A stretch of 57,562 nucleotides of DNA from Candidatus Adlerbacteria bacterium RIFCSPLOWO2_01_FULL_51_16 (GCA_001775485.1 MEWX01000003.1:1-57562), one strand, 5' to 3'. Counted from the first letter of the stretch, positions 23,764 to 42,152 are shown. Numbers and translations: made by a program. Notes: generated by a model from the sequence alone, not told the origin.

Positions 23764-23838
23764 TGGGTGGCTACAGGGAATCGAACCCTGATCGAGAGCT
23801 CCACAAGCTCCAGTGTTAACCGTTACACCATAGCCACC
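23764..23838 (-). tRNA. tRNA-His (GTG) with genome-encoded G-1
   Basis: Hand-folded: G-1 + GTGGCTA acceptor, D stem GTGT/ACAC, anticodon stem GGAGC/GCTCT with loop TTGTGGA, T arm CAGGG-TTCGATT-CCCTG, 3' TAGCCAC-C. Confidence 0.85.
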
Positions 23839-24856: not shown

Positions 24857-25117
24857 TTATTTTACGGCAAAAATCTCTGCCCCCTCTTTGGTTTTCTGAG
24901 AGAGCTTCATTGCCGCGTCATCGCCTTTTTTTGCGGAGGCGACATCCTTATGATCTATCTGCAACGACCCAACAACTTCCTCAAACTCCTCCTCCCCCCT
25001 TTTTATTTTTATTTTGTCGCCCTTGTTGAGTTTGCCCGAGAGCTTTACCACAGCGACCCCCAGCTTGTCGTACCAGTGGGTCACGATACCGAGCGGTTTT
25101 TCTTTTTTCTCTGCCAT
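24857..25117 (-). CDS. translation elongation factor-like small beta-barrel protein (EF-Tu domain 2-like)
   Basis: 86 aa; PLGIVTHWYDKLGVAVVKLSGKLNKGDKIKIKRGEEEFEEVVGSLQIDHKDV matches the family annotated as translation elongation factor-like protein. Confidence 0.6.
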   Translation of the reverse strand: MAEKKEKPLGIVTHWYDKLGVAVVKLSGKLNKGDKIKIKRGEEEFEEVVGSLQIDHKDVASAKKGDDAAMKLSQKTKEGAEIFAVK

Positions 25118-26465: not shown

Positions 26466-26845
26466 ACTTGTATTTTACCAAAATCTGATACTCAATTCAA
26501 TGACATACGTTCTGACTGGTACGTAACAATACCGTACTGATACGAACATACCAGTGGGTAACTATTTAGTGCCATCCCTATACACCCAAACTCGCTAATG
26601 GTACTCCATAAAACAGTGCCTTGTTTACCTTCTGGTTAATCGTTTATGACGTAGCATCCATTGTCCTGAATATGCCCCTACTGCTACGGGGAGGACAAGT
26701 AGCAGGTTTAACTCCTGTATAACAGGATTGACTGGGATTATGGCGGGATAAAGAAAAGGGGGGTGCCCTCGTTTCTCTCGGTTCTTTTTACGTCAAAACC
26801 CAGAGGCTCTTTTCAAACTACACAGGGGCAGATTTGCTTTATTGA

Positions 26846-28495
26846 TTATGAGAATATTTTTTCTACAATCTCCTTCAATCTTGTAGGAATGCTGGCAACG
26901 TCAATGTCCTTAAACGTCTTGAATGCCTTAAATGGTTTGTTGCCACCAGCAGGAATAACTACTCCGCCATTTTCGCAAACCTTTTCAAAATTTGGGTCAA
27001 GAACTTCTATGCTGCCGAGTCCTTCGGATAAATTCACCTCGTCTTCAATTTTCTGACTACTTGCTTGATTGTCCGTATCCTTGTCATAAATAACTACATA
27101 GGGAAACTTAAAAGCGTTTAGAACCTTCGAGAAAAATGGTATTGCATCTTTGCTGCCGCATTCCACGATAGTTATGCCGTAATCATAAAAAAGATATTCT
27201 GGTTTTACTTTCTGGGCAATAAGTGGCAAAACAACTTTTTCAGTATCACCTTCAACCAAGACTACTTTTTTACCAAAAAACATCTCACTGCGTTCTGGGT
27301 CAAACTCATTCAAGAGCTTAAAGTTTTTCCTCTCCTCTTCTACTGCAAAAATATCTTTCTGATATTGAATAATCTTAGTTCCAATCTCAAGGTTGTTCTT
27401 TACTGCGATGCCGATTGATTTGTACTCACCCATATCAACAAAGAAGCTGGAGTGTGTAGTAAAAACTACTTGGTCTGTTTTAGTAATTTCTTTAAGCAAG
27501 GCAAACATCGCCCGTTGCATCTGTGGATGTAAGTAAAGTTCAGGCTCTTCAATCCCAAAAATCAGCGCTTTTGCTTTTTCACCCTGCTCCTTCTTGAGTA
27601 AGTCAGCGTAAGCTCGAAAGATTACAAAAATTACCGACCTCTGCATTCCGTGCCCTTTATTTTCTATTGCAGTAGAAATACCGTCATCCACCATTATCTT
27701 TGTCCCAGATTGAAAGACATCTTTCAAGCTCGGTGGCGTTACATCGAGCTTTATTGTTGTGCCTTTCATATGTGCGGAGAGTTTCTCGCTCAACATTGTC
27801 TCGAACTCTTTTAGTTGGGCGATTCTGCCATCTTGTGCATCGTTTTCTCCCATCAATAATTTCGTAAATTGCTCGTTGACCTTTTTAAGTTCCGCATCTT
27901 GCAAAACACTACTAAGCATAGCGTTGATTATCTGCCCAAATCTGGACTTCTCGGTTATTTTTGCCTCTTCCTTAACATCCTTAACGGCTGGAACGTAGAG
28001 AAAGTCTGGTAAGTATCCATTTGCAACTTGTGCCCAACCAAAAGGTTTGGGCTTCCAGAAATACTTTTTATCGGTAGATGTGAACGGTTCAATTTCTTCT
28101 TTATCTGTAATTTCAACCGCGTCCTTTTTATCTTTTTCGTTTTCAAACTTTTCTTCCAAGATAACTGCAAACAATCGTTGCGTTTCTTCACCTTCAAAGA
28201 AATACTCTTTACGAATTATAACAGTCTCTCCGTCTTCCAGTAGATATTTTCCAAAAGTAGTTTTTGCTTCCGCGTTCAAATCACGAAACCAAACTTGGAT
28301 GATAGTCTTCTCACCACAATCATTAAAAAAATGAGCATCAAGTTTTTTCGTATCACTAAAAAATAAGTCCAGCGCTTTTAAGACATTGGACTTCCCAGCG
28401 TTATTCTCTCCGATGAAAGCCATTAAATCCAAAAAATCAATTCGCTCGGACTTAAATGACTTGAAGTTTTTAATAAATACTCTTGAAATTTTCAT
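26846..28495 (-). CDS. OLD-family nuclease (ABC-type ATPase + C-terminal TOPRIM)
   Basis: 549 aa. N-terminus MKISRVFIKNFKSFKSERIDF..FIGENNAGKSN (Walker A, K35), GHGMQR, Walker B IFGIEEPELYLHP, TTHS. TOPRIM motifs VVLVEGDTEKVV and VVIYDKDTD. ATGA overlap with the upstream gene. Confidence 0.85.
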   Translation of the reverse strand: MKISRVFIKNFKSFKSERIDFLDLMAFIGENNAGKSNVLKALDLFFSDTKKLDAHFFNDCGEKTIIQVWFRDLNAEAKTTFGKYLLEDGETVIIRKEYFFEGEETQRLFAVILEEKFENEKDKKDAVEITDKEEIEPFTSTDKKYFWKPKPFGWAQVANGYLPDFLYVPAVKDVKEEAKITEKSRFGQIINAMLSSVLQDAELKKVNEQFTKLLMGENDAQDGRIAQLKEFETMLSEKLSAHMKGTTIKLDVTPPSLKDVFQSGTKIMVDDGISTAIENKGHGMQRSVIFVIFRAYADLLKKEQGEKAKALIFGIEEPELYLHPQMQRAMFALLKEITKTDQVVFTTHSSFFVDMGEYKSIGIAVKNNLEIGTKIIQYQKDIFAVEEERKNFKLLNEFDPERSEMFFGKKVVLVEGDTEKVVLPLIAQKVKPEYLFYDYGITIVECGSKDAIPFFSKVLNAFKFPYVVIYDKDTDNQASSQKIEDEVNLSEGLGSIEVLDPNFEKVCENGGVVIPAGGNKPFKAFKTFKDIDVASIPTRLKEIVEKIFS

Positions 28496-29373
28496 AACGT
28501 TGATTCATAGGACTGCCTTATCAAATCCAAAACGTATGACACATCGTCTTTGGATTTTAATTTGATTCTTCCTTTGTAGCCCCATTCAAAGGAGCTAATA
28601 TCTTTTATCATCCCTTTCGGGTCAATTTTGTGGTCATAACGGGAATCTCGTACTAAAACGTCTATATAGCTCTTGCCGAACTCAAAGCGCACAAAACTCT
28701 TTGTGGTACGGTAGGTAATACCTACTTTTTGGTCTGCTTTTTCTTCGACGTTCGCCCATTTCTTTATTTCTTCTTGCAACGCATAAAAAATTGCCTTAAC
28801 GTCGTCGTTAACATTACTCAAATGGTAATCAACATTGTAAGCCCCCTCCTCTTTTCTCTTTGTAGTTTCGGCAACAGGCTTTACTGTCTCGGAGCTATAC
28901 ATTGTTTCCAAGAACAAAATATCGGAGCTGTATGGAGTGTACTTTATCAATTCGACACTGTTTTTTACTTGGCGCGCTGCCGAAAGAGTGTAACGGTCAA
29001 AACCTTGGGCAATGAGTATAAGTCGAGGACTGTCCCAAATAACCTTGCTTTCCTTACCGAGTTTATCTGCTACTAATAAATCAAATAGACGCTTATTTTC
29101 CTTGAGCCAATCAATATAGAAAAGTCCTTGGGATAGAATGTTATCCTTTTCTCCCCACTTATATTCGATAATGACTGGTGTGCCCGTCTCATCAATCGCC
29201 AACGTATCAATGCGTCCATCCTTTGTTTTATACTCATTTCCTAAAAAGCGCAGTCCCAGCAAACTTTCAAGATTTTCTGCAAAAAAATCTCGCAAAGCCG
29301 CTTCGTCCTTAAATTGGCGAAGGTCAACTGGAACTTGATGGGCTTTCTTACTTTTGATTTGAAAGAGTGCCAT
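28492..29373 (-). CDS. NucS/DUF91-like PD-(D/E)xK nuclease-fold protein with DUF5655-like C-terminal domain
   Basis: 293 aa. KDGRIDTLAIDETGTPVIIEYKWGE gives D...D...ExK (D56/D61, E70, K72). The C-terminal half (ITYRTTKSFVRFEFGKSYIDVLV...) resembles the domain usually fused to DUF91. Family assignment is from memory only. Confidence 0.55.
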   Translation of the reverse strand: MALFQIKSKKAHQVPVDLRQFKDEAALRDFFAENLESLLGLRFLGNEYKTKDGRIDTLAIDETGTPVIIEYKWGEKDNILSQGLFYIDWLKENKRLFDLLVADKLGKESKVIWDSPRLILIAQGFDRYTLSAARQVKNSVELIKYTPYSSDILFLETMYSSETVKPVAETTKRKEEGAYNVDYHLSNVNDDVKAIFYALQEEIKKWANVEEKADQKVGITYRTTKSFVRFEFGKSYIDVLVRDSRYDHKIDPKGMIKDISSFEWGYKGRIKLKSKDDVSYVLDLIRQSYESTL

Positions 29374-29374
29374 A

Positions 29375-31984
29375 TTAGTTTGCTAAAGATTGACTTATAA
29401 ATTGTTGGTAACTCTCGACTTCCTTGTATTTCACTTCAATGACTTCAAAATGCTTCTTGGCAGAACTGATTTTGGCTTGTTCAGATGGTCGGAGATTACC
29501 AATATCGCCCTTCGTTTCAATCACAAAATAAACGCGCTCCCTTTCTTCATTCCCCTGCAAGTCGCGTTTGGCAGTAACGATTGCCCAGTCGGGATTGTAG
29601 CCGCCAACGGGAGTTTCAACTTTGAACCAGTTAGGCAACTTGATGAACAGTTTAATACGCTCGTCGCTGTCCAGTTCAACCGCGAAATTCTTTTCAACAT
29701 CAGAGTCATACACCACCGCGTCATAGATGGAGTTCTTCACGGGCTGAATTACGTCCTTGTAGCTTGGAATGTGCTCGAATTGGCTTACAGAGTAATTGTC
29801 GGAAACAATTTCATAACGAACTTGGTCAACATAATCCTTGAGCAATCCTTCTTTGATGATGCGTGATACTTCAAAGCAAAATCTTTCAGGGTTATTTAGA
29901 AACGCACTAACGTTATTAGCTTTAGTAAGAATCGCGGCAACAGTTTGACGCGTCAGTTTAGTTTCGTTCTTAATCAGCTCAACACAATCAATGACTCGGC
30001 TCATTTGACTTAGGTCTTCGGCTCTTGTGCCAATAACTCGTGCCGTAACTCCGCCTTTGCCAATATCAACACCAGCACGCTCAACCCGAACTTGCGGCTT
30101 GGCAATTCTTAATTGTTGAATCCTTGCGGCGCAACTCTCAACAAGGCGCTCACTGTTTACCTTCACAAAATACCTCGTCTTCTTCGATATACGCTCCCAG
30201 ATGGCACTAAAGTCGTTGTCCTTATCAAAACCTTTCTTGAGCTTCACTGTATGCTTACGCTTGGCGTTATAAGGCAACGGCGGGGCTTTGTAGATGCCAT
30301 CCTCAACCAACTCGCCTTGGAGTTGCCCAACATACTCTGCGTAGCTTTCATTGGCAACAACGGAGAGCAAATTGACGTTTTTTAGAAAGACGCGCTCGCC
30401 GTCCTGATTGACGCATAGACGCATACCGCGTCCAATCTCTTGCCGCTTGCGAATGGTTGAGATGGTTTCCCGTAGTGTGCAGATATTGAAAATGTTTGGA
30501 TTGTCCCACCCCTCCTTGAGCGCGGAGTGAGAGAAGATAAACTCGGTTGGCTCATCAAAAGAAAGAAGCCGCTCCTTGTCTTTCATTATCAGCTCGTATG
30601 CTTCTTGGTTCTCGGCAATACTTGATTCTCTTTCAAGATATTCTTCGCCGCGCTTGGCGAAATAACCCTTGTGCACGTGGTCAGCATCCAGCGCCTTCAG
30701 TTTGTATTCATCTTTGAGGCGATTGAACTCTTTAACAAATGTTTTGCGAATGTAGCCGTCTGATTGAACATAATTATCAACTTTGTCTATAAAGAACAAA
30801 GAGAGCACTTTAATGTCCATCTCTCGCAACTGCTCCCGCTTTTCAAAATGGCGGCGTATGGTTTGTTCAATCTGCTCACGCATTACTTGTTCGCGGTTAC
30901 CTCCGATTCCTTCGCCCTGCTTAATTTCGATATGGTTACGAAAACGAATCTTGCCAAACTGCCCGATGTCGGGAGCATCTGCATCAAGCGCTTCCACGAT
31001 GTAACCCTCATACACATCGTTATTGGTCTTCTGCGCCAAGTCATCACCTTGCTTGAGCATTAGGCGCTTCTTTTTAGGGTTGCCGCTCGCGTCTTTCGCT
31101 ATTGCTTCAACTTTCGCCTTAATAACTTTGCCTGCCGCAACAGATGATAGGTTAAGGTAGGGACGGGATATGCCCGTGTCATCGTCAGTAACAGAATACA
31201 CCTCAATCTTCTTCACCAGTCCCAGTTGGTAAGCATCAAAGGGTGTGAGCTGATACATCAAGTTGTAGAGATTACGGTGCGTTGCAGAATAGCGAAGGCG
31301 GAATAACGAGTTAAAGTTTTTGAGTCCCTCTTTTGTTGCTTCGCCCTCCATATTCTGCGGCTCATCAAGAATCAGAATTGGATTGGTCTTTTGGATAAAA
31401 CTTATCGGTTGCTCACCCTGCATCTGGTCTCGCGCGGCGTAAAGCACATTCTTATCGCTGTTGAACGCTCCAACTGTCATCACCATTATGTTGATGTTGC
31501 TTGAGTCGGCGAAATGTTTTACCTGTGAGATATTTTTTGATTGGTATTCATAGAAGCGATATGGGACGTTATCGTATAGCTCGGCAAAATGTTCTTTGGT
31601 AATTTGGAGCGCTTTCATAACCCCTTCGCGGATGGCGACAGAAGGAACTAAGATAATAAACTTTTTCCATCCAAAGCGTTTGTTGAGTTCAAAAATGGTG
31701 CGGAGATAAACATAGGTTTTACCCGTGCCCGTTTCCATCTCAATCGAAAAGTCAAAGTCATCAACCACGCCACCATTGGTAATCTTGTTACGCTCCTGCA
31801 CTTTGTGAACGTTATTAAGAATCTCCTCTTGGGAGAGCGTGAGGTAGTTTGGATAGATGCCCAAAAGTCCGCTCCCAGCAATTATTTTACTTGCCGTTGC
31901 TTTCTCTTGTCCTTCAAAAGCATCAACGATAGCGTTGATTGCTTCAATCTGAAAATCTTGGTTGGCATCAAACTTAAACTTCAT
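29375..31984 (-). CDS. res: Type III restriction enzyme, Res subunit (SF2 helicase + PD-ExK nuclease)
   Basis: 869 aa; motif I METGTGKTY, motif II LILDEPQNMEG, C-terminal nuclease NPDWAIV...YFVIETKGD. ATGA overlap with the mod stop. Confidence 0.88.
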   Translation of the reverse strand: MKFKFDANQDFQIEAINAIVDAFEGQEKATASKIIAGSGLLGIYPNYLTLSQEEILNNVHKVQERNKITNGGVVDDFDFSIEMETGTGKTYVYLRTIFELNKRFGWKKFIILVPSVAIREGVMKALQITKEHFAELYDNVPYRFYEYQSKNISQVKHFADSSNINIMVMTVGAFNSDKNVLYAARDQMQGEQPISFIQKTNPILILDEPQNMEGEATKEGLKNFNSLFRLRYSATHRNLYNLMYQLTPFDAYQLGLVKKIEVYSVTDDDTGISRPYLNLSSVAAGKVIKAKVEAIAKDASGNPKKKRLMLKQGDDLAQKTNNDVYEGYIVEALDADAPDIGQFGKIRFRNHIEIKQGEGIGGNREQVMREQIEQTIRRHFEKREQLREMDIKVLSLFFIDKVDNYVQSDGYIRKTFVKEFNRLKDEYKLKALDADHVHKGYFAKRGEEYLERESSIAENQEAYELIMKDKERLLSFDEPTEFIFSHSALKEGWDNPNIFNICTLRETISTIRKRQEIGRGMRLCVNQDGERVFLKNVNLLSVVANESYAEYVGQLQGELVEDGIYKAPPLPYNAKRKHTVKLKKGFDKDNDFSAIWERISKKTRYFVKVNSERLVESCAARIQQLRIAKPQVRVERAGVDIGKGGVTARVIGTRAEDLSQMSRVIDCVELIKNETKLTRQTVAAILTKANNVSAFLNNPERFCFEVSRIIKEGLLKDYVDQVRYEIVSDNYSVSQFEHIPSYKDVIQPVKNSIYDAVVYDSDVEKNFAVELDSDERIKLFIKLPNWFKVETPVGGYNPDWAIVTAKRDLQGNEERERVYFVIETKGDIGNLRPSEQAKISSAKKHFEVIEVKYKEVESYQQFISQSLAN

Positions 31985-33723
31985 ATTGTTTTTAATTCCA
32001 CGTTCAGCCCAAGATTTGCTTTAGCGCTGTCATCGAGGGCACTATCCAAGCAAATAAAGACCTTCCCTTTATAATTCTTGCCCGTTAGTTCGCTTACGGT
32101 CTTATCGTCAATCTTCTTGTCGAGGCATACCAAAAGTCGTTTCTCGCCATCGGAAACAACATAAACATCATTCTTCCCAAGTTTAGTTTCGTTGACTTTA
32201 GAGTTCAGAGAAAGCCCTTCTTTGACAATGTTCTCATAAACCATATCAACGGCTTTGGTATCATCAAACAGTTTAGCTTGCTTGGCTTTTGCGAGATAAC
32301 TTTCAAATGTCTTCTTGTTCTCCTCCTCGGATTTTGTGGGGTCAAACTCAAAAGCATTTTCAGGGTAGTTAGATTCAGCAAGTTTGAATGTCTTGAAAGT
32401 TGCCTCAATCTGTTTGAGGCGGTCTTTGGCAATATCTGCGACGGTATTATGCCCAGATTTATAATCTGGGCTTTTCACATCAACTACCTCTGGCAACTGA
32501 ACTAAAATAAACTTTCTTGAACCCGTGTCAGCGTAATTTTGCTCCAACACTGCTTCCGCCGTTGAACCAGAACCAGCAAAAAAATCGAGCACGAGAGCGT
32601 TTTTATCATTAACAACTTGAAGCATCCTTTGGATAAGTTTAGGATTCTTGCCACCATTTTTTATCCAAGTTGAATCCGATTCAATAACATCCGTCCAGTT
32701 GGTATCAAGATTAGTTTCTTCGCTTGCGGGTAATCTATATTGCGGCTTACTAGTATTCGGAGATAAACGCAAATCGCCAGCATCAATCATTGTCATTGCT
32801 CTTTCCTTCTCATACATCCAATGCCTACCTGTCGGCGGCTTCTGCCCAAATAATTCGTATTCCATTGTTGGTCGCACCCCTGGCGCATCAAATGCGTGCC
32901 ATCGTTCCTCCTTCTTTTGATACTTTTTAGGAGGCACTACTAAAGTAGCGTCGCTTTTTGCGTAGCATAAAATGTAACCTACCCCTTGATTGAGGGCTTT
33001 TACTGTGTCAGTTTCTTGGATATTCTTTTTTACTCTTGAAACAAAAATTGCATTTCTAAAGTTTTCTTCACCAAACACTTCGTCCATTATCATTCGCAAA
33101 TGGTGAGCTTCGTTATCGTCAATGCTTACGAAAATAATGCCGTCATCGCGTAGTAGATTCCACGCCAACTTAAGGCGCGGATACATCATTGAAATCCAAT
33201 CGCTGTGATAACGTCCGCTTGTTTCTCGATTCGTGGTCAAGCTCGCACCGTTCCCGTCTTTCTGTCCTGTTTGCTTGAGGTAATTTGAGAGAGGCGCGGA
33301 GAAATCATCGTGATACACAAAGTCGCCGCCAGTGTTGTATGGAGGGTCAATGTATATCATTTTTACCTGCTCAAAGTATGCCTTCTGAAGAAGTTTGAGG
33401 ACTTCAAGATTGTCGCCTTCAATAAAGAGGTTCTCACTTTCATCGAACTTCACGCTCTCATCTTTGACGGGACGAAGCGTAGCTTTGCTTGGAATCAAGA
33501 CATTCTTGATGGCGTTACTTTTGCCAGCCCAAGAAAAGTTAAACTTCTCGATTCGTTCATCAATCGCACTACCAAGAACGGCTCGGAGTTTGTCCCAGTC
33601 AATCTTATTCTCACTAAATGCTTCGGGGAGGACTTTGTGCAACTCCACTAACTTCTCCTCGGAAAGATTTGAGGAGGTGAGATTTACTTTTTTGTGATTC
33701 TTTTTTGATGTATCCATATCCAT
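31981..33723 (-). CDS. mod: Type III DNA methyltransferase, Mod subunit (beta-class N6A/N4C)
   Basis: 580 aa; IYIDPPYNTGGDF (motif IV) precedes LDFFAGSGSTAEAV (motif I), the beta-class order typical of Type III Mod. Confidence 0.88.
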   Translation of the reverse strand: MDMDTSKKNHKKVNLTSSNLSEEKLVELHKVLPEAFSENKIDWDKLRAVLGSAIDERIEKFNFSWAGKSNAIKNVLIPSKATLRPVKDESVKFDESENLFIEGDNLEVLKLLQKAYFEQVKMIYIDPPYNTGGDFVYHDDFSAPLSNYLKQTGQKDGNGASLTTNRETSGRYHSDWISMMYPRLKLAWNLLRDDGIIFVSIDDNEAHHLRMIMDEVFGEENFRNAIFVSRVKKNIQETDTVKALNQGVGYILCYAKSDATLVVPPKKYQKKEERWHAFDAPGVRPTMEYELFGQKPPTGRHWMYEKERAMTMIDAGDLRLSPNTSKPQYRLPASEETNLDTNWTDVIESDSTWIKNGGKNPKLIQRMLQVVNDKNALVLDFFAGSGSTAEAVLEQNYADTGSRKFILVQLPEVVDVKSPDYKSGHNTVADIAKDRLKQIEATFKTFKLAESNYPENAFEFDPTKSEEENKKTFESYLAKAKQAKLFDDTKAVDMVYENIVKEGLSLNSKVNETKLGKNDVYVVSDGEKRLLVCLDKKIDDKTVSELTGKNYKGKVFICLDSALDDSAKANLGLNVELKTI

Positions 33724-33736
33724 TTCAAATTAGGGC

Positions 33737-33967
33737 TTACTTCTTTTTTCTCCGAAATTTTGCTACCTCGACTTGGAAGTTAGCGTTGTCCCGAAGAAAC
33801 TTCTCGTAGGATTCTTTAGGGATTCGCCAGTAACCAATCTTTATTGCGTGTAGCCGCTCATCTTCAATATAGCGAAGGATGCTTCGTGGATGGACTCTTA
33901 ACTTATCGGCTACTTCACGGAGAGTATAAAAATCTCGTTCTTCTTTTGGTTGTTTGGGTTTGCGCAT
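33737..33967 (-). CDS. excisionase-family/MerR-like HTH DNA-binding protein
   Basis: 76 aa; FYTLREVADKLRVHPRSILRYIEDERLHAIKIGYWRIPKESYEKFL. Lies 13 nt upstream of mod. Confidence 0.7.
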   Translation of the reverse strand: MRKPKQPKEERDFYTLREVADKLRVHPRSILRYIEDERLHAIKIGYWRIPKESYEKFLRDNANFQVEVAKFRRKKK

Positions 33968-34034
33968 ACAAGAACAGTTTACCGCATTTTTTGTAACTGT
34001 GCAAATGTGTACACTTGTGATAAAATGATTTTAT
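33968..34034. promoter_or_regulatory. divergent promoter/operator region of the element
   Basis: Minus strand: -35 TTGCAC (34004-33999), 17-nt spacer, -10 TAAACT (33981-33976), ATG 8 nt later. Plus strand: extended -10 TGATAAAAT (34018-34026), ATG 8 nt later. Perfect palindrome GTGTACAC at 34007-34014 lies between them. Confidence 0.5.
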
Positions 34035-34775
34035 ATGGAAATGGATATGGCAACCACAACACAAGAAAAAGACATCCAAGCTATTGCCGACATCATCCAG
34101 CAGCACTACCTTGCCAGTGGAGATGAGTCAGTTGGCGTACCCGTGAAATACTTTGAGCAAAAGAGCTTTGGGCATCACGACGTCAAGATTGCTTTATCAA
34201 TTCTCACAAAGAGTGGGGCTGTCCAGAATTATCATCGTTGCTGGGGACATAACGATATAGATAAACAAAGTGGCACTGTGTCATTCACGGAAGTTGATAC
34301 AAAAGAGCCCAAAGAGAAGTTTGAGGGGGTTGTTCAAGCATTTGAGGCGTATCACATACTCATTAAGTCGGACATCCTAAAACAGCTTGCGCAGCCCTCA
34401 AAAAAGAGTGCTCGCTCAAGCAAAGCGAAGGAAGATGTTGCTATACAGCTTTTTCTTGATAATGACGGCGATTTATATAAAGAGCCCAAAAAATCATATT
34501 GCTACCCACTACTCCAAAACAAAGAGCCATTAAAGTTGATTCTTTACTTCATCAAAAACCCGAATCGTAGCTATGAAGAATCAACCCAAATGATTGCGCT
34601 ATCGCTGGAAAAAGACCCTCAATACTTGAGAGCCGAAATTGGCAAGATAAATCGCATTGCCTTAAATCGGCTCGGTTTAGGTAAGGAAAAATTGATACAA
34701 GCAAAACAAAACAGTGGCTACCGATTGAATCCAAAGATAAAAATTACTGCTGAAAAAGAGATACTCCTAAGATAA
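34035..34775 (+). CDS. hypothetical protein with C-terminal winged-helix-like segment (putative element regulator)
   Basis: 246 aa. The C-terminus ...IGKINRIALNRLGLGKEKLIQAKQNSGYRLNPKI resembles OmpR/CadC-type wHTH ends. Confidence 0.5.
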   Translation: MEMDMATTTQEKDIQAIADIIQQHYLASGDESVGVPVKYFEQKSFGHHDVKIALSILTKSGAVQNYHRCWGHNDIDKQSGTVSFTEVDTKEPKEKFEGVVQAFEAYHILIKSDILKQLAQPSKKSARSSKAKEDVAIQLFLDNDGDLYKEPKKSYCYPLLQNKEPLKLILYFIKNPNRSYEESTQMIALSLEKDPQYLRAEIGKINRIALNRLGLGKEKLIQAKQNSGYRLNPKIKITAEKEILLR

Positions 34776-34805
34776 CCATAGATACTGTGGACAAGTTCGA
34801 GTAAG

Positions 34806-34830
34806 GCAGCTCAAAACGAGCTGCTTTTTT
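34806..34830 (+). terminator. intrinsic terminator
   Basis: GCAGCTC-aaaac-GAGCTGC followed by T6. Confidence 0.75.
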
Positions 34831-34891
34831 CGTTTCAAAAACTACCTTCGGATTATGTTCGGCTACGGCACGCGACTGTTAAGTTTTCTGT

Positions 34892-35143
34892 ATGAAGTCA
34901 AATACAGAAAGCCAAGTCGCAATTTCTGATTTAGGACTCGCAGCGCTATTGGTAACTCTCCAATTCGAACTGGTTAGTTTGGAGAGAACGAGCGAAAAGC
35001 GAGTTGACTTCGTATTCGCAAACTCGAAAGAGGTCGAACGAGCAATCGCGGATTTTTGGGAAGACAAGAATGTAAACGTCCCGATTCAAACGCTGTTCAA
35101 TAACTTTCGTCTTCTGAAGAATCGCCTTTACGCCTTCAAATAA
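34892..35143 (+). CDS. small hypothetical protein (phage/element-type; possibly DUF5659-like)
   Basis: 83 aa ORF in the element's plus-strand module. Family guess is from memory only. Confidence 0.45.
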   Translation: MKSNTESQVAISDLGLAALLVTLQFELVSLERTSEKRVDFVFANSKEVERAIADFWEDKNVNVPIQTLFNNFRLLKNRLYAFK

Positions 35144-35144
35144 T

Positions 35145-35327
35145 ATGCGCCTCAAGCCAGAACAATTTGAGCGTTTGAGAAAGCCATTCGATAAGTATGG
35201 GGCATTTGAGGGGCGTACGAAGGATGAAGTCGAAGAAATACTCAATGGCGTGATGAATTATTACCTCACACTCGCAAATATAAACCTCCGCTTAAAGCGG
35301 GAAGAAAAAAACAATGGAACAAAATAA
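35145..35327 (+). CDS. small hypothetical protein
   Basis: 60 aa; starts 2 nt after the previous stop and overlaps the PrimPol ORF start. Confidence 0.4.
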   Translation: MRLKPEQFERLRKPFDKYGAFEGRTKDEVEEILNGVMNYYLTLANINLRLKREEKNNGTK

Positions 35328-37374
35328 TATGGAAACAAATAATCAAATCTTAGAAGCTGCTTTACACTACGCTGAACTTGGCTTGTCAGTCATACCTGTT
35401 GGGCGAGATAAAAAACCCCTCATCGAATGGAAGAAGTACCAAGAAGAGCGCGCATCACAAGAACAAATTAAAGAATGGTGGGCACAATTTCCAGACGTAA
35501 ATGTTGGAGTCGTAACGGGTAAAATATCTGGGATTGTTGTCGTGGATGTTGAATCTGGTGGCGATGTGAAGAATCTGCCGCCCACTGTCATATCAAAAAC
35601 GGGGGGTGGTGGCTGGCACTGTTTCTACTTGTACCCTAATCTGCCAGTCCAAAATGGTGTGAGAGTACGAGAGTTGACCGACATTAGAGGAGATGGTGGG
35701 TATGTTGTGATGCCGCCATCACTCCACAAATCTGGGAATCGGTATGAATGGTTAGTCTCGCCAAACGATGCGGATTTTGCCGAATTGCCAGAATGGGTAT
35801 TACAAAAAACTTCAAAACAAAAGCAGAAAACCAATTGGCAAGAGTTCATCTCAAGGGAAAATCCAAATGGCGCAAGGAATATGAGCGCGACACAGCTTGC
35901 GGGCAAGTTGCTCTATCACATACCGATAGAGTTTTGGGATGTTTCTGGTTGGGCAACGATGAAAGAGTGGAATGCACAAAACAATCAACCACCATTGACC
36001 GAGGGTGAATTGAGAGGAGTTTGGGATAGTATCAAGAAATTGGAACTTGGAAGACGGGAAAAGGCATCATCAACTCCAACGGCACCTACCAAACGCGTTT
36101 TTGAAGCGCCGATGGGAGCAGATGTAACGTTTGCGGAATGGCGCGAGACAGTCCAACGAAACTTTCCAGAACTGGTATTCCCTGCGGAGGTTTCCCTTGC
36201 TGTCGTATCTCAAATACTTATTACAGAAATCACCAATCCTTTCGCATTGGTGCTTGTAGATGTGCCTGCATCGGGAAAAACGATAACGTTGAACTTTTTT
36301 GCTGAAATTGAAGGACTTTCGTATGCGACTGATAAGTTTACACCTGCCTCATTTGTATCAAATGCAGCAAACGTGAAAAAGAAAGACCTTCAAGAAGTAG
36401 ATTTACTTCCGCGCATACAGTACAAAACTCTGCTTGTCCGCGACTTTGCAACTTTATTTTCCAAGCGGGATGACGACTTAGCTGAATTGATGGGATTGCT
36501 CACGCGCGTCCTTGATGGCGAGGGATTAAATACTGATTCAGGAGTACACGGCAAGCGGCACTACGTTGGAGAGTACCTTTTTATGATGCTGGGCGCATCA
36601 ACGCCTATACCTCCAAAAGTCTGGAAACTAATGGGCGCCCTCGGTTCACGTTTATTCTTCTTAAAAATGAATGCGCAGGACAAATCAGAAGAGGAGTTGA
36701 TAGAACAGCTTGTTACTCAAACAGCTAAAAATAAAGAGCGGGAATGCCGAACAATTACAAAGGACTTTCTCTACACTCTTTGGCGTAAGTATCCGAATGG
36801 TTTTGATTGGGATAGGGCAAAGGATAAAAAAGAATTTCTTGCAGTTATCGTTCGTTGCGCTCAACTTCTTGCGCACTTACGAGGCAATATAAATGTTTGG
36901 AAGGAGTGGGACGAGGAAGGCAGAGTGTACAACTACAACCCGCCCACTATTGAAAAGCCAGACCGCATTAACCAACTTCTATACAACCTTGCTCGTGGAC
37001 ACGCATTAGTGTGCGGCAGAACGCAAATCAATGAGGATGATTTGAAATTGGTTATTGAAATAGCGACTGATAGCGCTCCCACCATACGCTCGAAGCTGTT
37101 TCGGAAACTGCTTGAAAAGAATGGGGTGATGAGCACGGGAGAAGTCGAGATAGCGCTTGATTGTTCCAAACCAACCGCATTAAAGGAGATGGAAACGCTA
37201 AAGTTTTTGGGCATTTGCTACTTCGCATCAAACAGTTATGGACAGGTCGGCGAACCAGAAAAAGAGATACACCTTGTCGAAGCATTCAAGTGGTTTCTGG
37301 GTGAAGAATGTATACGGCTTCGAGGTATCCCCCTGCCACCGAAGCAAGAACAGCTACTTGGAGGCGATGGGTAA
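35314..37374 (+). CDS. bifunctional primase-polymerase (PrimPol) N-terminal domain fused to a P-loop NTPase-like C-terminal region
   Basis: 686 aa. LGLSVIPVGRDKKPLIEWKKYQ, VGVVTG..SGIVVVDVE (DxE-type), GGGGWHCFY, IRGDGGYVVMPPSLH. Later LVLVDVPASGKT (Walker A-like). Confidence 0.8.
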   Translation: MEQNNMETNNQILEAALHYAELGLSVIPVGRDKKPLIEWKKYQEERASQEQIKEWWAQFPDVNVGVVTGKISGIVVVDVESGGDVKNLPPTVISKTGGGGWHCFYLYPNLPVQNGVRVRELTDIRGDGGYVVMPPSLHKSGNRYEWLVSPNDADFAELPEWVLQKTSKQKQKTNWQEFISRENPNGARNMSATQLAGKLLYHIPIEFWDVSGWATMKEWNAQNNQPPLTEGELRGVWDSIKKLELGRREKASSTPTAPTKRVFEAPMGADVTFAEWRETVQRNFPELVFPAEVSLAVVSQILITEITNPFALVLVDVPASGKTITLNFFAEIEGLSYATDKFTPASFVSNAANVKKKDLQEVDLLPRIQYKTLLVRDFATLFSKRDDDLAELMGLLTRVLDGEGLNTDSGVHGKRHYVGEYLFMMLGASTPIPPKVWKLMGALGSRLFFLKMNAQDKSEEELIEQLVTQTAKNKERECRTITKDFLYTLWRKYPNGFDWDRAKDKKEFLAVIVRCAQLLAHLRGNINVWKEWDEEGRVYNYNPPTIEKPDRINQLLYNLARGHALVCGRTQINEDDLKLVIEIATDSAPTIRSKLFRKLLEKNGVMSTGEVEIALDCSKPTALKEMETLKFLGICYFASNSYGQVGEPEKEIHLVEAFKWFLGEECIRLRGIPLPPKQEQLLGGDG

Positions 37375-37438
37375 TCAATAAAGCGAATCTGACGCTGTGC
37401 ATAAAGGTCGAAAATTAACAACAATAAACATTAAATCT

Positions 37439-37693
37439 ATGGAAGAAAAAGGAATTGTGTTTAGTATCGTGTTTGATGAGGAGGAAGTTCAGAGTTTCGC
37501 GGAAGCAAACTTTGAGCGAGAACTGACAGAGCTGGAGTTGAACCGAATGAAAATGCACTGGTACGAAGATGGCGCTGCGTATGGGGCAAGAACGGAACTG
37601 CTGGCAAGCGCTATAAAAATGGCGATAAATACAAAGGATTACAATTTCGAGCGAACGGATAGAGATTATTTGGAAAGTGGTGGCGGGAAGTAG
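37439..37693 (+). CDS. small hypothetical protein
   Basis: Track ORF 37397..37693 starts with GTG. The ATG at 37439 (MEEKGIVFSIVFDEEE...) is preferred. Confidence 0.4.
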   Translation: MEEKGIVFSIVFDEEEVQSFAEANFERELTELELNRMKMHWYEDGAAYGARTELLASAIKMAINTKDYNFERTDRDYLESGGGK

Positions 37694-37731
37694 TGCTGTT
37701 TCTTGAGCTGAAACGTAGTGTGGATAGCACC

Positions 37732-37759
37732 TTGACACAAATGTACACCTTGCTATACT
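37732..37759 (+). promoter_or_regulatory. near-consensus sigma-70 promoter
   Basis: TTGACA (37732-37737), 16-nt spacer, TATACT (37754-37759). Confidence 0.6.
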
Positions 37760-37766
37760 GGTAACG

Positions 37767-37878
37767 TAGCCTACATCCGTATATAAGTCGCAGGGTATTT
37801 TTATCCTTCAATCCAGAAAGGGGTTCATCCTCTGTCTGCCATTGAAGGATGTCCTTGCGACATTCGGATGTGGGCTAC
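37767..37878 (+). ncRNA. 112-nt extended hairpin starting at the predicted +1 (candidate sRNA or 5' leader structure)
   Basis: Three stacked helices: 14 bp (37767-37780 / 37865-37878, one G-U), 9 bp (37788-37796 / 37853-37861) and 10 bp perfect (37803-37812 / 37841-37850). The apical loop is 28 nt. Confidence 0.45.
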
Positions 37879-37936
37879 CAGATAGATGTGGTGAGCCCCT
37901 TTTTGGTTTATGGGGATTGCCGCGAGCATATAACTT

Positions 37937-38377
37937 ATGAACGGCAACGACAACAAAAAAAGTGGTTGGGAAACCATAAAATATCTTTCAGGAATTATTT
38001 GTATGGGATTCTTGTACGGGATATTCTCATTGGTCTTTCTGGCTATGTTACTGCAATGGACTTTAGAAATAGATATTACCGAGTTTGATAAAATATACCG
38101 TCTTCTATTTCTTGTTTGGGCTGGATGGGTAATAGGTTTGCACGTATGGCTGCGGAAAGAAAAAAGAATACCGCAATCGCCAAAAGAAGGAACACAAACA
38201 AAGAAGGAGAACCAGGAAACAGACCCGCGAAGTTATGACCCGTTCTACATATCGGACAAGTTCAATCCTAATCTTAGTAAGTTAAACAAGAAGAACACAG
38301 AAGAAGAATCGGATGTAGTGTTCTTCCGTAAAAATCCGTCGAAATCAAATGAAAATAACGAACAAACAAAATTATGA
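37937..38377 (+). CDS. small membrane protein, function unknown
   Basis: 146 aa; two hydrophobic helices then a charged tail. 4-nt overlap with the recombinase start. Confidence 0.5.
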   Translation: MNGNDNKKSGWETIKYLSGIICMGFLYGIFSLVFLAMLLQWTLEIDITEFDKIYRLLFLVWAGWVIGLHVWLRKEKRIPQSPKEGTQTKKENQETDPRSYDPFYISDKFNPNLSKLNKKNTEEESDVVFFRKNPSKSNENNEQTKL

Positions 38378-40023
38378 CCAACAATCAACCAAAAATTAAA
38401 GCGGTACTTTACTGCCGCGTATCATCTAAAGAGCAAGAAGAGGCTGGCTATTCTTTGCCGTCTCAAGAAAAGCTCTTAAAAGAGTATGCCGATAGAAAGG
38501 GCTTTGTCATTGCAAAAACTTTTTTAATCGCGGAATCTGCAAGTGGAGCAAAGCAGAGAAAAGTGTTTAGCGAGATGATTAAGTTCACGGAAAAAAACAA
38601 GGTTGCCAATATCCTTTGTGAGAAAGTTGACCGACTTACAAGAAATCTGAAAGATGCCTTAGCTGTAAACGATTGGCTTGAAGAAAAGCCAGAGCGACAA
38701 GTACACTTTGTCAAAACAAATCTCGTCATCCACAAAGGCGCGAAGTCCGATGAGAAGTTTCGTTGGGATATTGAGATAGTGCTCGCCAAAAAATACATTG
38801 CCAACCTTTCAGAAGAGATACGCAAGGGACAAAAAGAAAAGATAGCTCAAGGGTGGCTTCCAACCAAACCACCGCTTGGCTACAAGACAGTTGGTGAAAA
38901 AGGGCATAAAACCCAAGTGATTGAAACAGAAATAAACAAGAAAGGAGAGGAAGTAATCAGTGGGACTGCTCGGCTTATCAAACAAATGTTTGACTGGTAT
39001 GCCACGAGCAACTACTCCCTCTCAAAACTTGAGGTTGAGCTGTATAAGGCTGGATTGCGCACAAGAAGCGGTAAGAAGCTCGGTATCAGCCGCATCCATC
39101 TCTTGTTGTCAGAGCCATTCTACTACGGCAAAATCCGTTGGAATAACGAACTTTATGAGGGCAAGCAAGAGCATCTTATTGGCAAAGATATATTCGATAA
39201 AGTGCAAACTATCCTCAAAAGGAAAATTAAAAATCCTCATTTCGCTACGCACAATTCCTTATTCAAAGCGAAAATCCATTGTGAGCATTGTGGTGGAATG
39301 GTTACTTGGGAACGCCAGAAAGGTCATTGGTATGGGCATTGCAACAATCACGGTGAGTATCGCAAGTGTCCAAAGAAGACCTACATTCGAGAGGAGAAGG
39401 TTGAGGAGCAACTTATAGGATTCTTTGAAACAATAGCACCGAAAAATAACGAAGTACTTGAAGTGATTGAGGAAATCGTAAGACAAGAGAACGCTCAAAA
39501 CATTATGGAGCGAGAAACTGAAATTACGAGATTGAGCGGGTTACTTGCCTCAATACGAAAACAGAAAGATAAATACTTTGAGGCGAAGATAAATGAGAAA
39601 GCTCCACTTGAGTTTTGTGAAAGAAAAATTGCCGAGTGTGTTGAAGAAGAATCAAATCTTGAATCAGCTCTGATTCTTGTAAGTGATAAAAGTGATGAGT
39701 ACCAGCAACTACGCTTGGTGATTCACGAACTTGCTTACAAAGCGAAGGAAATATACGAAAAAGCCACTATTGATGAGAAGAGATTACTGTTCGCTCAAAT
39801 CTTTACGAACATCGTCCAAGATGGGCTTAGAATCAAGCCAAACTACACTTTAGCGGCTGAATACTTGGCTACTTGGGCGCCGAAGCTCAATCAGGATTAC
39901 GAACGCGAGAAAAGCCTTACTACAAAAGCAAAAACAGGCAATTCTGTGCCTGTCTCTACTGTCTGGTGCGCAGGAGAGGATTTGAACCTCCAATCCCTTG
40001 CGGGAGCTACCACCTCAAGGTAG
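38374..40023 (+). CDS. large serine recombinase (integrase)
   Basis: 549 aa. Resolvase catalytic domain (KAVLYCRVSSKEQ...GYSLPSQ), recombinase domain, Zn-ribbon (CEHCGG...HCNNHGEYRKCPKK) and a coiled-coil tail. The last 60 nt overlap tRNA-Leu antisense. Confidence 0.9.
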   Translation: MTNNQPKIKAVLYCRVSSKEQEEAGYSLPSQEKLLKEYADRKGFVIAKTFLIAESASGAKQRKVFSEMIKFTEKNKVANILCEKVDRLTRNLKDALAVNDWLEEKPERQVHFVKTNLVIHKGAKSDEKFRWDIEIVLAKKYIANLSEEIRKGQKEKIAQGWLPTKPPLGYKTVGEKGHKTQVIETEINKKGEEVISGTARLIKQMFDWYATSNYSLSKLEVELYKAGLRTRSGKKLGISRIHLLLSEPFYYGKIRWNNELYEGKQEHLIGKDIFDKVQTILKRKIKNPHFATHNSLFKAKIHCEHCGGMVTWERQKGHWYGHCNNHGEYRKCPKKTYIREEKVEEQLIGFFETIAPKNNEVLEVIEEIVRQENAQNIMERETEITRLSGLLASIRKQKDKYFEAKINEKAPLEFCERKIAECVEEESNLESALILVSDKSDEYQQLRLVIHELAYKAKEIYEKATIDEKRLLFAQIFTNIVQDGLRIKPNYTLAAEYLATWAPKLNQDYEREKSLTTKAKTGNSVPVSTVWCAGEDLNLQSLAGATTSR

Positions 40024-40050
40024 TGCGTCTACCAATTTCGCCACCTGCGC
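39964..40050 (-). tRNA. tRNA-Leu (GAG), class II, CCA encoded
   Basis: Hand-folded: acceptor GCGCAGG/CCTGCGC, anticodon stem CTACC/GGTAG with loop TTGAGGT, long variable arm CCC-GCAA-GGG, T arm GGAGG-TTCAAAT-CCTCT, ACCA end. Confidence 0.88.
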
Positions 40051-40065
40051 GTATGCGAACGAGAT

Positions 40066-40542: not shown

Positions 40543-40633
40543 TGCCGAGACACTTTAGCACACTTGAGAATGCTCCGCAAAAAACCATAGCTGCCGAGAG
40601 ATGAACGGGAGCGCACTCCTGCGCAAAGGGTTT

Positions 40634-41299: not shown

Positions 41300-41303
41300 A
41301 TTT

Positions 41304-42140: not shown

Positions 42141-42152
42141 TTGAGAATTCTA

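What the first reader, a model, noticed from the sequence alone, without database searches (positions are those of the whole stretch)
26846..33967. Five-gene translationally coupled operon: HTH, Type III Mod, Type III Res, PD-(D/E)xK protein, OLD nuclease
All five genes are on the minus strand with junctions of 13 nt, -4 nt (ATGA), 1 nt and -4 nt (ATGA). No internal terminator is visible.

The Type III R-M pair looks intact. Mod has DPPY and FAGSGST in beta-class order. Res has TGTGKT, DEPQ and a C-terminal PD..ETK.

Appending a second nuclease pair to a complete Type III R-M in one transcription unit suggests a layered or functionally integrated system. For example, OLD could act on DNA ends or stalled Res translocation products. 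The alternative is two independent neighbours.
Basis: partly seen in the sequence, partly recalled or inferred. Interest (0 to 1): 0.75.

Follow-up and report, generated by a model that had tools for sequence, protein, structure and literature searches.

The report
Mosaic restriction-plus-nucleases defence operon
The five tightly packed genes are real, but they are a patchwork of three swappable anti-virus modules carried on a mobile element: a regulator plus a complete Type III restriction system, a small nuclease that habitually travels with restriction systems, and a free-standing OLD nuclease. This is an ordinary kind of defence cluster, not a new integrated machine.

Summary
Five minus-strand ORFs lie at the stated coordinates with junctions of 13, -4, +1 and -4 nt. 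They encode an HTH_17 regulator, an EcoP15I-like Mod and Res, a 293-aa PD-(D/E)xK/DUF5655 protein (PADLOC candidate PDC-S18) and a Class-1-type OLD nuclease.

In five relatives whose Res is 76-91% identical, Mod-Res-DUF5655 is kept. The next gene is OLD, a different OLD-family ATPase-TOPRIM, a PifA-like KAP NTPase, unknown ORFs or an IS.

OLD orthologues (72-77% identity) follow two other Type III operons with an unrelated Res and no DUF5655 gene. One lies beside a Type IIG-like R-M and one stands alone. Nucleotide homology with relatives stops exactly at gene borders.

DUF5655 genes sit beside R-M genes of several types in at least 27 of 54 genomes (odds ratio 9.3). On Acinetobacter plasmids they lie between hsdS and hsdR.

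The cluster is the cargo of a low-GC integrative element at tRNA-Leu, probably in a Patescibacteria genome. It is best read as layered defence built by cassette shuffling, in line with published "guilt-by-embedding" work. Functional synergy is untested.

The parts
33968..34053 (-). Divergent intergenic region holding the likely operon promoter. It lies between the HTH gene and the 246-aa plus-strand ORF at 34035-34775.
   Evidence: One sigma-70-like match at 34053-34025 on the minus strand. This is a consensus match only, with no excess over shuffles. Nucleotide homology with L077 starts at 34053.
33737..33967 (-). HTH_17 (MerR/excisionase-type) small DNA-binding protein of 76 aa. It is probably the regulator at the head of the cargo operon.
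   Evidence: Pfam HTH_17 4.7e-10. An HTH_17 gene occupies the same position ahead of the cargo in L064, L071, L074/75, L077 (83% identity), L158 and L160.
31981..33723 (-). Type III R-M methyltransferase (Mod), beta-class, 580 aa. Its central ~660 nt (33057-32397) is diverged from relatives.
   Evidence: EcoP15I Mod 4e-50. DPPY at aa 126 precedes FAGSGST at aa 382. There is a homology gap in the middle of Mod against L077, L158 and L160.
29375..31984 (-). Type III R-M restriction subunit (Res), 869 aa: an SF2 helicase motor plus a C-terminal PD-(D/E)xK endonuclease.
   Evidence: ResIII plus RE_endonuc. PADLOC REase_III 1e-243. EcoP15I Res 6e-61. Motifs.
28492..29373 (-). R-M-linked accessory nuclease, 293 aa. 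The N-terminal domain is a NucS/Shedu-like PD-(D/E)xK nuclease (D56, E70, K72). The C-terminal domain is DUF5655. It belongs to PADLOC candidate family PDC-S18.
   Evidence: (AF2 pLDDT 84.6). Neighbourhood census. Contexts.
26846..28495 (-). Class-1-type OLD nuclease, 549 aa: an ABC ATPase (Walker A at aa 29-36) plus TOPRIM (EGDTE at aa 415-419, DKDTD at aa 471-475). It is an independently mobile single-gene cassette.
   Evidence: Orthologue contexts. Nucleotide homology with L069, L071, L072 and L075 is confined to this ORF.
26756..26770 (-). Weak hairpin plus T-run about 76 nt after the OLD stop. It is a candidate terminator for the operon.
   Evidence: It is a pattern match only and not above chance for the region.
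34035..40050 (+). Backbone of the integrative element that carries the operon: a 246-aa ORF, DUF5659 (34892-35143), Prim-Pol protein (35314-37374), large serine recombinase (38374-40023) and the tRNA-Leu(gag) target (39964-40050, minus strand).
   Evidence: GC is 0.42 in the island against 0.50-0.52 in the flanks. The same backbone genes occur in L063, L064, L065, L077 and L158.

Best explanation
The cluster is the defence cargo of an integrative mobile element. It was assembled from three gene-sized modules that recombine independently.

1. An HTH_17 regulator plus a complete EcoP15I-like Type III R-M system. Mod methylates host sites. Res translocates and cuts unmethylated DNA.
2. A DUF5655/PDC-S18 PD-(D/E)xK nuclease. 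It belongs to a family that habitually rides inside or at the 3' end of ATP-dependent R-M operons.
3. A Class-1 OLD ATPase-TOPRIM nuclease. This is a self-sufficient single-gene defence that here fills a variable 'last slot'.

The genes are probably co-transcribed from a promoter upstream of the HTH gene and translationally coupled, so the element delivers several defences at once.

Shown: gene identities, packing, module boundaries and independent assortment.

Inferred: co-transcription, and that each module defends on its own against different phages or phage counter-measures. I infer that the DUF5655 nuclease acts on DNA, for example at ends or on forms of DNA that the R-M enzyme does not cut. 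I also infer that OLD acts as a nickase/exonuclease or abortive-infection effector, as its characterised relatives do.
For: Identities.

Module boundaries:
- Only the DUF5655 ORF (29373-28492) is shared with L064 and L065.
- Only the OLD ORF (28495-~26850) is shared with L069, L071, L072 and L075.
- Mod-Res-DUF5655 is shared with L158, L160 and L162, ending at the DUF5655 stop codon.

The slot after DUF5655 varies among relatives with Res at 76-91% identity:
- OLD in the window and L063.
- A 643-aa divergent OLD-family ATPase-TOPRIM in L077.
- Unknown 84- and 359-aa ORFs in L158.
- IS256-type transposase, RT and Fic in L160.
- A PifA-like KAP NTPase in L162.
- pAgo in L121.

OLD orthologues at 72-77% identity:
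- After HTH-Mod-Res with a Res that has no detectable similarity to this one (L071).
- After the same kind of operon with an unrelated 149-aa gene in between (L074-76).
- Divergent from a Type IIG-like R-M (L069).
- Solo in a Nomurabacteria chromosome (L072).

R-M linkage of DUF5655:
- R-M-like ORFs make up 45 of 257 ORFs within 3 genes, against 6 of 268 at 5 or more genes away (odds ratio 9.3, p = 1e-9).
- Pfam census.
- hsdM-hsdS-DUF5655-hsdR on Acinetobacter plasmids.

Composition: GC3 steps down along the operon, Res 0.50, DUF5655 0.41, OLD 0.38.

Published context:
- PDC families were defined as genes embedded in BREX, DISARM and Type I R-M systems (bioRxiv 10.1101/2024.01.29.577857).
- Class 1 OLDs work as single genes (PMC10568477 and PMC12392090).
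Against: - The very tight junctions (+1 and -4 nt) recur in L077 with non-orthologous parts: a DUF5655 protein at 47% identity and a different OLD-family ATPase. This could mean selection for the combination and not chance hotspot filling.
- OLD-family genes recur in Type III operons of independent lineages.
- No member of the DUF5655 family has been tested, so 'independent defence' is an assumption.
- Most context loci come from related Patescibacteria elements, so the counts are not phylogenetically independent.
- My ORF calling and phmmer classification of neighbours are crude. They miss some R-M genes and do not handle alternative genetic codes.
Confidence: 0.7

Rival explanations
1. The DUF5655 nuclease is a true accessory subunit or partner of ATP-dependent restriction enzymes. 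It might finish off DNA after the single Type III or Type I cut, a job RecBCD does in E. coli. It might instead restrict DNA that escapes through modification, in the manner of a Type IV enzyme. The functional unit would then be HTH-Mod-Res-DUF5655, with OLD still separate.
For: - The gene follows R genes at 1-12 nt in at least four R-M architectures. These are this Type III family (window, L077, L158, L160, L162), another Type III family (L004, L039), Eco57I-type MTase plus T5orf172-ResIII (L001, L003) and Type I (L065, L027).
- It lies between hsdS and hsdR on Acinetobacter plasmids at only 25% identity.
- Enrichment has an odds ratio of 9.3.
- The catalytic triad is invariant.
- The fold resembles Shedu and NucS nucleases.
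Against: - About half of the loci show no R-M gene within 3 genes.
- Solo copies exist on Staphylococcus and Streptomyces plasmids.
- An 86%-identical copy in L064 follows a 301-aa unknown protein with no R-M.
- In the wider family of this Res (~40% identity) only 1 of 74 loci has the gene.
- The association with many unrelated R enzymes argues against a specific protein-protein interface.
- The published origin of PDC families treats them as independent embedded defences.
Confidence: 0.2
2. The DUF5655 nuclease and the OLD-family ATPase form a two-gene system, and the whole five-gene unit is one integrated machine. The small nuclease would be the sensor or adaptor and the ABC-ATPase-TOPRIM the effector.
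For: - The ATGA overlap between the DUF5655 gene and the ATPase gene is kept in L077 although both parts are non-orthologous. The recombination breakpoint lies inside the DUF5655 gene (window ~29144), so its distal part and the ATPase were exchanged together.
- OLD-like genes lie near DUF5655 genes in L031, L033 and L045, and perhaps L044.
- Other NTPases overlap the DUF5655 stop in L162 (KAP) and follow it in L047 (KAP).
Against: - Only 3-4 of 54 DUF5655 loci have an OLD-family neighbour.
- None of the four independent contexts of the closest OLD orthologues has a DUF5655 gene.
- Homology with L158, L160 and L162 ends precisely at the DUF5655 stop.
- Class 1 OLDs defend as single genes (PMC12392090).
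Confidence: 0.07
3. The DUF5655 gene is a selfish, self-inserting nuclease gene, in the manner of a homing endonuclease. It would target the 3' ends of restriction genes and have no defence role.
For: - A gene-sized cassette at 84-86% identity sits in three different upstream contexts with borders exactly at the ORF.
- It encodes a PD-(D/E)xK nuclease with a putative DNA-binding domain.
Against: - There is no conserved flanking target sequence or repeat.
- It was not found in IMG/VR viral contigs, and only three weak or partial hits were found in phage records.
- The orientation is always co-directional and coupled to the operon.
- Insertion positions differ: after R, between S and R, or before M.
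- It shows strong purifying conservation across phyla.
Confidence: 0.03

Closest known systems
Type III restriction-modification systems (EcoP15I/EcoP1I type)
   Same: - A beta-class Mod with DPPY before FxGxG.
- A Res with an SF2 helicase motor and a C-terminal PD-(D/E)xK endonuclease.
- The mod stop codon overlaps the res start codon.
- Sequence matches to EcoP15I Mod and Res.
   Different: - It is preceded by an HTH_17 gene.
- It is followed, within the same tight gene array, by two further nuclease genes.
- It is carried on a serine-recombinase integrative element, probably in Patescibacteria.
Defence genes embedded in multi-gene immune systems ('guilt-by-embedding', Payne et al. bioRxiv 10.1101/2024.01.29.577857; TgvAB inside the V. 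cholerae Type I R-M, PMC11411939; DarTG2 inside an EPEC Type I R-M, PMC12255303)
   Same: - Extra defence genes sit inside or against an R-M operon.
- The fourth gene hits PDC-S18, one of the 145 candidate families derived that way.
- ABC-ATPase/TOPRIM proteins are the commonest embedded class in that study.
- A small regulator sits at the head of the cluster, as RptR does.
   Different: - Those studies cover Hma, BREX, DISARM and Type I R-M. This case is a Type III R-M.
- The extras here are appended after res, not inserted between subunits.
- Relatives such as L115, L124 and L130 do have OLD between mod and res.
- PDC-S18 itself is untested.
Class 1 OLD nucleases (P2 Old, Thermus scotoductus OLD, V. 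cholerae Vc OLD)
   Same: - An N-terminal ABC ATPase plus a C-terminal TOPRIM in one ~550-aa protein.
- The best solved match is Ts OLD 6P74.
- There is no UvrD-like helicase, retron RT or AriB next to it.
- An orthologue stands alone in L072.
   Different: Class 1 is described as single genes not proximal to other defence genes (PMC10568477). Here, and in L071 and L074-76, the gene is the translationally coupled last gene of an R-M operon.
Shedu (SduA) and NucS/EndoMS nucleases
   Same: The N-terminal domain of the fourth protein has the same PD-(D/E)xK fold (Foldseek: 5gke 1e-4, 2vld 4e-4, 8ti9 5e-3).
   Different: - There is no SduA_C or full NucS Pfam membership. NucS_C scores 22.6 bits against a cut-off of 24.
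- The accessory domain (DUF5655) is different. It resembles DUF1801, YjbR and the MotA DNA-binding domain only weakly.
Defence hotspots of mobile elements (P2/P4 hotspots, PMC9122126)
   Same: A conserved element backbone has a fixed position where unrelated defence genes are exchanged. P2 carries old at such a hotspot.
   Different: The element here is a Prim-Pol/DUF5659/serine-recombinase integrative element with no recognisable virion genes. It is not a P2/P4 relative.

Membership tests
Type III R-M system | A Mod subunit that is an N6-adenine/N4-cytosine beta-class methyltransferase, with motif IV (DPPY) before motif I (FxGxG) | tested here: met
   N6_N4_Mtase 1e-27, PADLOC MTase_III 7e-149 and EcoP15I Mod 4e-50. 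DPPY at aa 126 and FAGSGST at aa 382.
Type III R-M system | A Res subunit with an SF2 helicase/ATPase motor plus a C-terminal PD-(D/E)xK endonuclease | tested here: met
   ResIII 1e-16, RE_endonuc 6e-35, PADLOC REase_III 1e-243 and EcoP15I Res 6e-61. TGTGKT, DEPQ and PD...ETK are present.
Type III R-M system | mod directly upstream of res in one operon | tested here: met
   The mod stop overlaps the res start by 4 nt.
Type III R-M system | ATP-dependent cleavage that needs two inversely oriented unmethylated sites, with hemimethylation of the host | not testable with these tools
   This needs biochemistry or methylome data.
OLD family nuclease, Class 1 | An N-terminal ABC ATPase with a dimerisation insert, fused to a C-terminal TOPRIM domain with metal-binding acidic residues | tested here: met
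   AAA_15 7e-46, OLD-like_TOPRIM 2e-18, PADLOC Old 7e-86 and 6P74 2.5e-31. Walker A is GENNAGKS, and EGDTE and DKDTD are present. The dimerisation insert was not examined separately.
OLD family nuclease, Class 1 | Context: no adjacent UvrD-like helicase (Class 2), retron RT/ncRNA (Class 3) or AriB (Class 4) | tested here: met
   The neighbours are the DUF5655 gene upstream and a non-coding stretch then a SHOCT protein downstream. No RNA family other than tRNAs was found.
OLD family nuclease, Class 1 | Stands as a single gene not proximal to other defence genes (as described in PMC10568477) | tested here: not met
   It overlaps the preceding nuclease gene by 4 nt and is the last gene of an R-M array. 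The orthologue in L072 does meet this feature.
PADLOC candidate PDC-S18 / Pfam DUF5655 | Match to the family profile over the full length | tested here: met
   PDLC04946 3e-68 over residues 2-291. DUF5655 3e-11 over residues 182-291.
PADLOC candidate PDC-S18 / Pfam DUF5655 | Found embedded in or adjacent to multi-gene defence systems (the basis of PDC definition) | tested here: met
   R-M genes lie within 3 genes in at least 27 of 54 loci. It sits between hsdS and hsdR on Acinetobacter plasmids.
PADLOC candidate PDC-S18 / Pfam DUF5655 | Anti-phage activity | not testable with these tools
   No paper mentions PDC-S18, and the only paper that mentions DUF5655 is a genome report.
Gabija / PARIS (multi-gene OLD-type systems) | Partner gene: GajB helicase or AriB TOPRIM | tested here: not met
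   No such neighbour exists. GajA and AriA profile hits are weaker than Old and cover shared ATPase or TOPRIM regions only.

The most novel reading that the evidence does not exclude
The DUF5655/PDC-S18 nuclease is a portable fourth component of ATP-dependent restriction systems (Type I, Type III and relatives). It would physically or functionally couple to the R subunit, for instance by degrading or sensing the DNA ends that restriction makes in organisms with few repair nucleases. It would also be the docking point for interchangeable NTPase effectors (OLD, KAP/PifA, pAgo) in the slot behind it. On this reading the window shows one state of a modular R-M / nuclease / effector system.
Probability: 0.12. 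Interest if true: 0.65.

Novelty: new member of a known kind. Interest (0 to 1): 0.33.

Why it matters
The case shows that a neat, translationally coupled five-gene operon can be a recent patchwork, with recombination borders exactly at gene ends. Tight packing alone should therefore not be read as functional integration.

It yields two modest, testable leads.
- The untested DUF5655/PDC-S18 nuclease family is linked to R-M systems of several types and phyla. It can be assayed in E. coli from the Acinetobacter plasmid version.
- Class-1-type OLD genes, usually described as loners, recur as the last or middle gene of Type III operons. That offers a setting to ask what triggers them.

It also documents a family of Patescibacteria integrative elements whose cargo position exchanges defence genes.

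Tried and rejected
- **E. coli origin.** There is no megablast match of the 7.1-kb region in 5,426 E. coli genomes. I dropped my initial guess of a P4-like satellite of enterobacteria.
- **Window Res and OLD as tblastn probes for neighbours of DUF5655 genes.** The search found almost nothing. I first read this as 'no R-M nearby'. Pfam and phmmer censuses showed that the R-M genes are present but belong to other families.
- **The 149-aa gene between Res and OLD in L074-76.** I tested whether it is a truncated DUF5655 relative. hhalign gave a probability of 0.3%, so I rejected this.
- **att sites.** I looked for a repeat of the tRNA-Leu 3' part at the left end of the island. Only 9-15-nt chance-level matches appeared, so the left border is not mapped.
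- **Phase-variation repeats in mod.** None were found.
- **Rfam.** Only tRNAs were found.
- **DUF5655 genes in viral collections.** None were found in IMG/VR. Three weak or partial hits were found in phage records, and I did not follow them up.
- **Literature.** There are no hits for 'PDC-S18'. One irrelevant genome report mentions 'DUF5655'.
- **Sequence search of the DUF5655 profile against the PDB.** Nothing was significant; NucS scored E = 0.84. Only the fold comparison was informative.
- **Host identification by cluster names.** The names are withheld for window proteins. The host is inferred only from the taxonomy of homologues.
Full report
**1. Observation**

- 33967-33737 (76 aa)
- 33723-31981 (580 aa)
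- 31984-29375 (869 aa)
- 29373-28492 (293 aa)
- 28495-26846 (549 aa)

The junctions are a 13-nt gap, an ATGA overlap, a 1-nt gap and an ATGA overlap.

Profile searches identify the products:
- an HTH_17 protein;
- a Type III Mod (PADLOC MTase_III 7e-149);
- a Type III Res (ResIII plus RE_endonuc; REase_III 1e-243);
- a protein with a C-terminal DUF5655 domain and a near-threshold NucS_C match, which hits the PADLOC candidate family PDC-S18 (3e-68);
- an OLD nuclease (AAA_15 plus OLD-like_TOPRIM; PADLOC Old 7e-86).

By sequence, the nearest solved proteins are EcoP15I Res and Mod and the Class 1 OLD of Thermus scotoductus. The simple promoter and terminator scan shows nothing above shuffled expectation inside the array. 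A weak hairpin with a T-run lies 76 nt past the OLD stop. Co-transcription remains an inference from the packing.

**2. Setting**

The array lies in a low-GC stretch (0.42, against 0.50-0.52 in the flanks). That stretch also encodes a DUF5659 protein, a Prim-Pol protein and a large serine recombinase. The 3' end of the recombinase gene overlaps tRNA-Leu(gag) on the other strand.

The same backbone genes accompany relatives of the array in metagenomic contigs. So the array is the cargo of an integrative element. There is no match in E. coli genomes. Homologues with names come overwhelmingly from Patescibacteria (CPR) genomes, which is the likely host. This is an inference.

**3. The fourth protein**

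An alignment of 77 homologues keeps D56, E70 and K72 invariant. An AlphaFold model (pLDDT 84.6) matches NucS/EndoMS, the Shedu nuclease domain and the FokI cleavage domain through its N-terminal half. Its C-terminal DUF5655 half matches DUF1801, YjbR and the MotA DNA-binding domain more weakly.

No paper mentions PDC-S18, and only a genome report mentions DUF5655. The PDC families were defined as genes found embedded in BREX, DISARM and Type I R-M systems, and they are untested candidates (bioRxiv 10.1101/2024.01.29.577857).

**4. Is the four-gene order conserved?**

I examined this from three sides.

*(a) Centred on the DUF5655 gene.*
- In 54 loci from species-representative genomes, tblastn with this window's Res and OLD found almost nothing.
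- Pfam and iterated phmmer showed that the neighbours are R-M genes of other families.
- The arrangements seen are: hsdM-hsdS followed by the gene; RadC, the gene, then hsdM-hsdS; other Type III pairs; and Eco57I-type methylase plus T5orf172-ResIII.
- R-M-like ORFs make up 45 of 257 ORFs within three genes, against 6 of 268 at five or more genes away (odds ratio 9.3, p = 1e-9).
- At least 27 of 54 loci have an R-M gene within three genes. Only 3-4 have an OLD-family gene nearby.
- In cultured bacteria the family sits between hsdS and hsdR on about 15 Acinetobacter plasmids, beside hsdMSR in a Rhizobium plasmid, and alone on Staphylococcus and Streptomyces plasmids.

*(b) Centred on Res.*
- Five contexts have Res at 76-91% identity to this one. 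All keep Mod-Res-DUF5655 with a junction of -1 to +5 nt. The next gene differs:

| Locus | Gene(s) after DUF5655 |
|---|---|
| Window, L063 | OLD |
| L077 | a 643-aa divergent OLD-family ATPase-TOPRIM |
| L158 | unknown 84- and 359-aa ORFs |
| L160 | IS256-type transposase, then RT and Fic |
| L162 | a PifA-like KAP NTPase |

- Among 74 more distant Res relatives (~40% identity), one has the DUF5655 gene, followed there by a pAgo. Three have an OLD-family gene, each time between mod and res.
- Other embedded genes in those loci include Schlafen/AlbA_2, HerA and ABC ATPases.

*(c) Centred on OLD.*
- The closest orthologues (72-77% identity) were found in four settings.
- One follows HTH_17-Mod-Res where the Res shows no detectable similarity to this one and there is no DUF5655 gene (L071).
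- One follows the same kind of operon with an unrelated 149-aa gene in between (L074-76).
- One is divergent from a Type IIG-like R-M (L069).
- One stands alone among housekeeping genes in a Nomurabacteria chromosome (L072).

**5. Module borders**

Nucleotide comparison makes the mosaic explicit.
- L064 and L065 share only the DUF5655 ORF (window 29373-28492).
- L069, L071, L072 and L075 share only the OLD ORF (28495-~26850).
- L158, L160 and L162 share Mod-Res-DUF5655 and stop at the DUF5655 stop codon.
- L077 shares everything from the promoter region to a point inside the DUF5655 gene (~29144).
- The centre of mod is diverged in all of them.
- GC3 falls from 0.50 in res to 0.41 and 0.38 in the last two genes.

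**6. Interpretation**

The stable unit is HTH-Mod-Res-DUF5655. OLD is one of several interchangeable occupants of the slot behind it, and it is itself an independently moving cassette.

The best-supported reading is layered defence assembled by cassette exchange on a mobile element. This is the same phenomenon as published embedded defences and mobile-element hotspots (PMC9122126).

Class 1 OLDs are known to act as single genes. The reported activities are:
- P2 Old, triggered when RecBCD is inhibited;
- Vc OLD, a RecBCD-independent nickase;
- tRNA cleavage, reported for P2 Old.

These come from PMC10568477, PMC12392090 and PMC12445682.

Two observations keep a functional link open:
- OLD-family genes recur in Type III operons.
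- In L077 the same tight layout is rebuilt with non-orthologous parts.

I give 0.70 to the mosaic, independent-modules model. I give 0.20 to the DUF5655 nuclease being a true R-M accessory, 0.07 to a DUF5655-OLD pair or a fully integrated machine, and 0.03 to a selfish nuclease gene.

**7. Novelty and score**

Every part belongs to a known family, and the architecture belongs to a known kind: an R-M operon with embedded or appended defence genes on a mobile element.

Three things appear not to be described:
- this particular combination;
- the Type III context for PDC-S18;
- the CPR element family.

I rate it a new member of a known kind, with interest of about 0.33.

**Caveats**

The neighbour censuses use a crude ORF caller and conservative phmmer classes. 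The loci are not phylogenetically independent. Nothing here tests function.

Noticed in passing
window 38374-40050: The large serine recombinase ORF (38374-40023, plus strand) overlaps the tRNA-Leu(gag) gene (39964-40050, minus strand) by 60 nt. The element therefore seems to supply, or sit inside, the 3' part of the tRNA gene. The left end of the island (around 26.5 kb or further left) could not be mapped.
   Followed up: partly
window 32397-33057: The central ~660 nt of mod has no nucleotide homology to relatives whose flanking mod and res sequence is 70-81% identical (L077, L158, L160). This is consistent with exchange of the target-recognition region, and so of specificity.
   Followed up: partly
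L121 9668-12649; L018 6720-10870: DUF5655/PDC-S18 genes lie next to prokaryotic Argonaute genes in two unrelated loci. The arrangements are Mod-Res-DUF5655-pAgo-AraC in L121 and pAgo, a 377-aa ORF, then DUF5655 in L018.
   Followed up: partly
L023, L024, L033, L034, L036, L055 (around 9.3-14 kb in the 20-kb loci): A conserved arrangement RadC, DUF5655, hsdM, hsdS recurs, with an OLD-like gene after hsdS in L033. Several hsdM-hsdS-DUF5655 loci (L002, L005, L007, L026) show no recognisable hsdR within four genes.
   Followed up: no
L115 1617-3491; L124 5321-6988; L130 4166-5866: OLD-family genes are inserted between mod and res of Type III systems related to this one at ~40% identity. L124 hits PADLOC Old at 1.9e-76. 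Schlafen/AlbA_2, HerA and ABC-ATPase genes are embedded in other loci of the same set.
   Followed up: partly
L163 (NZ_CP047974.1 91784-98440) and about 14 other Acinetobacter plasmids: A DUF5655 gene at 25% identity lies between hsdS and hsdR of a Type I R-M system in cultured Acinetobacter baumannii. This offers a tractable model for the family.
   Followed up: partly
window 34035-37374; L063, L064, L065, L077, L158: A recurring backbone marks a family of integrative elements in Patescibacteria-like contigs whose cargo position exchanges defence genes. The backbone is a 230-280-aa unknown protein, DUF5659, a small ORF, Prim-Pol or a Toprim primase, and a serine or tyrosine recombinase. In L069, L071 and L074 the tyrosine integrase is accompanied by a DUF488 gene. 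No virion genes were seen.
   Followed up: no
window 24857-25117: An 86-aa ORF has a sub-threshold match to EF-Tu domain 2 (26.5 bits against a cut-off of 30.3). It lies at the edge of the low-GC region and may be a gene fragment.
   Followed up: no
window 39964-49248: Seven tRNA genes (Leu, Val, Arg, Ser, Arg, Arg, Lys) are scattered singly among short ORFs over 9 kb to the right of the island. An eighth (tRNA-His, 23765-23837) lies to its left.
   Followed up: no
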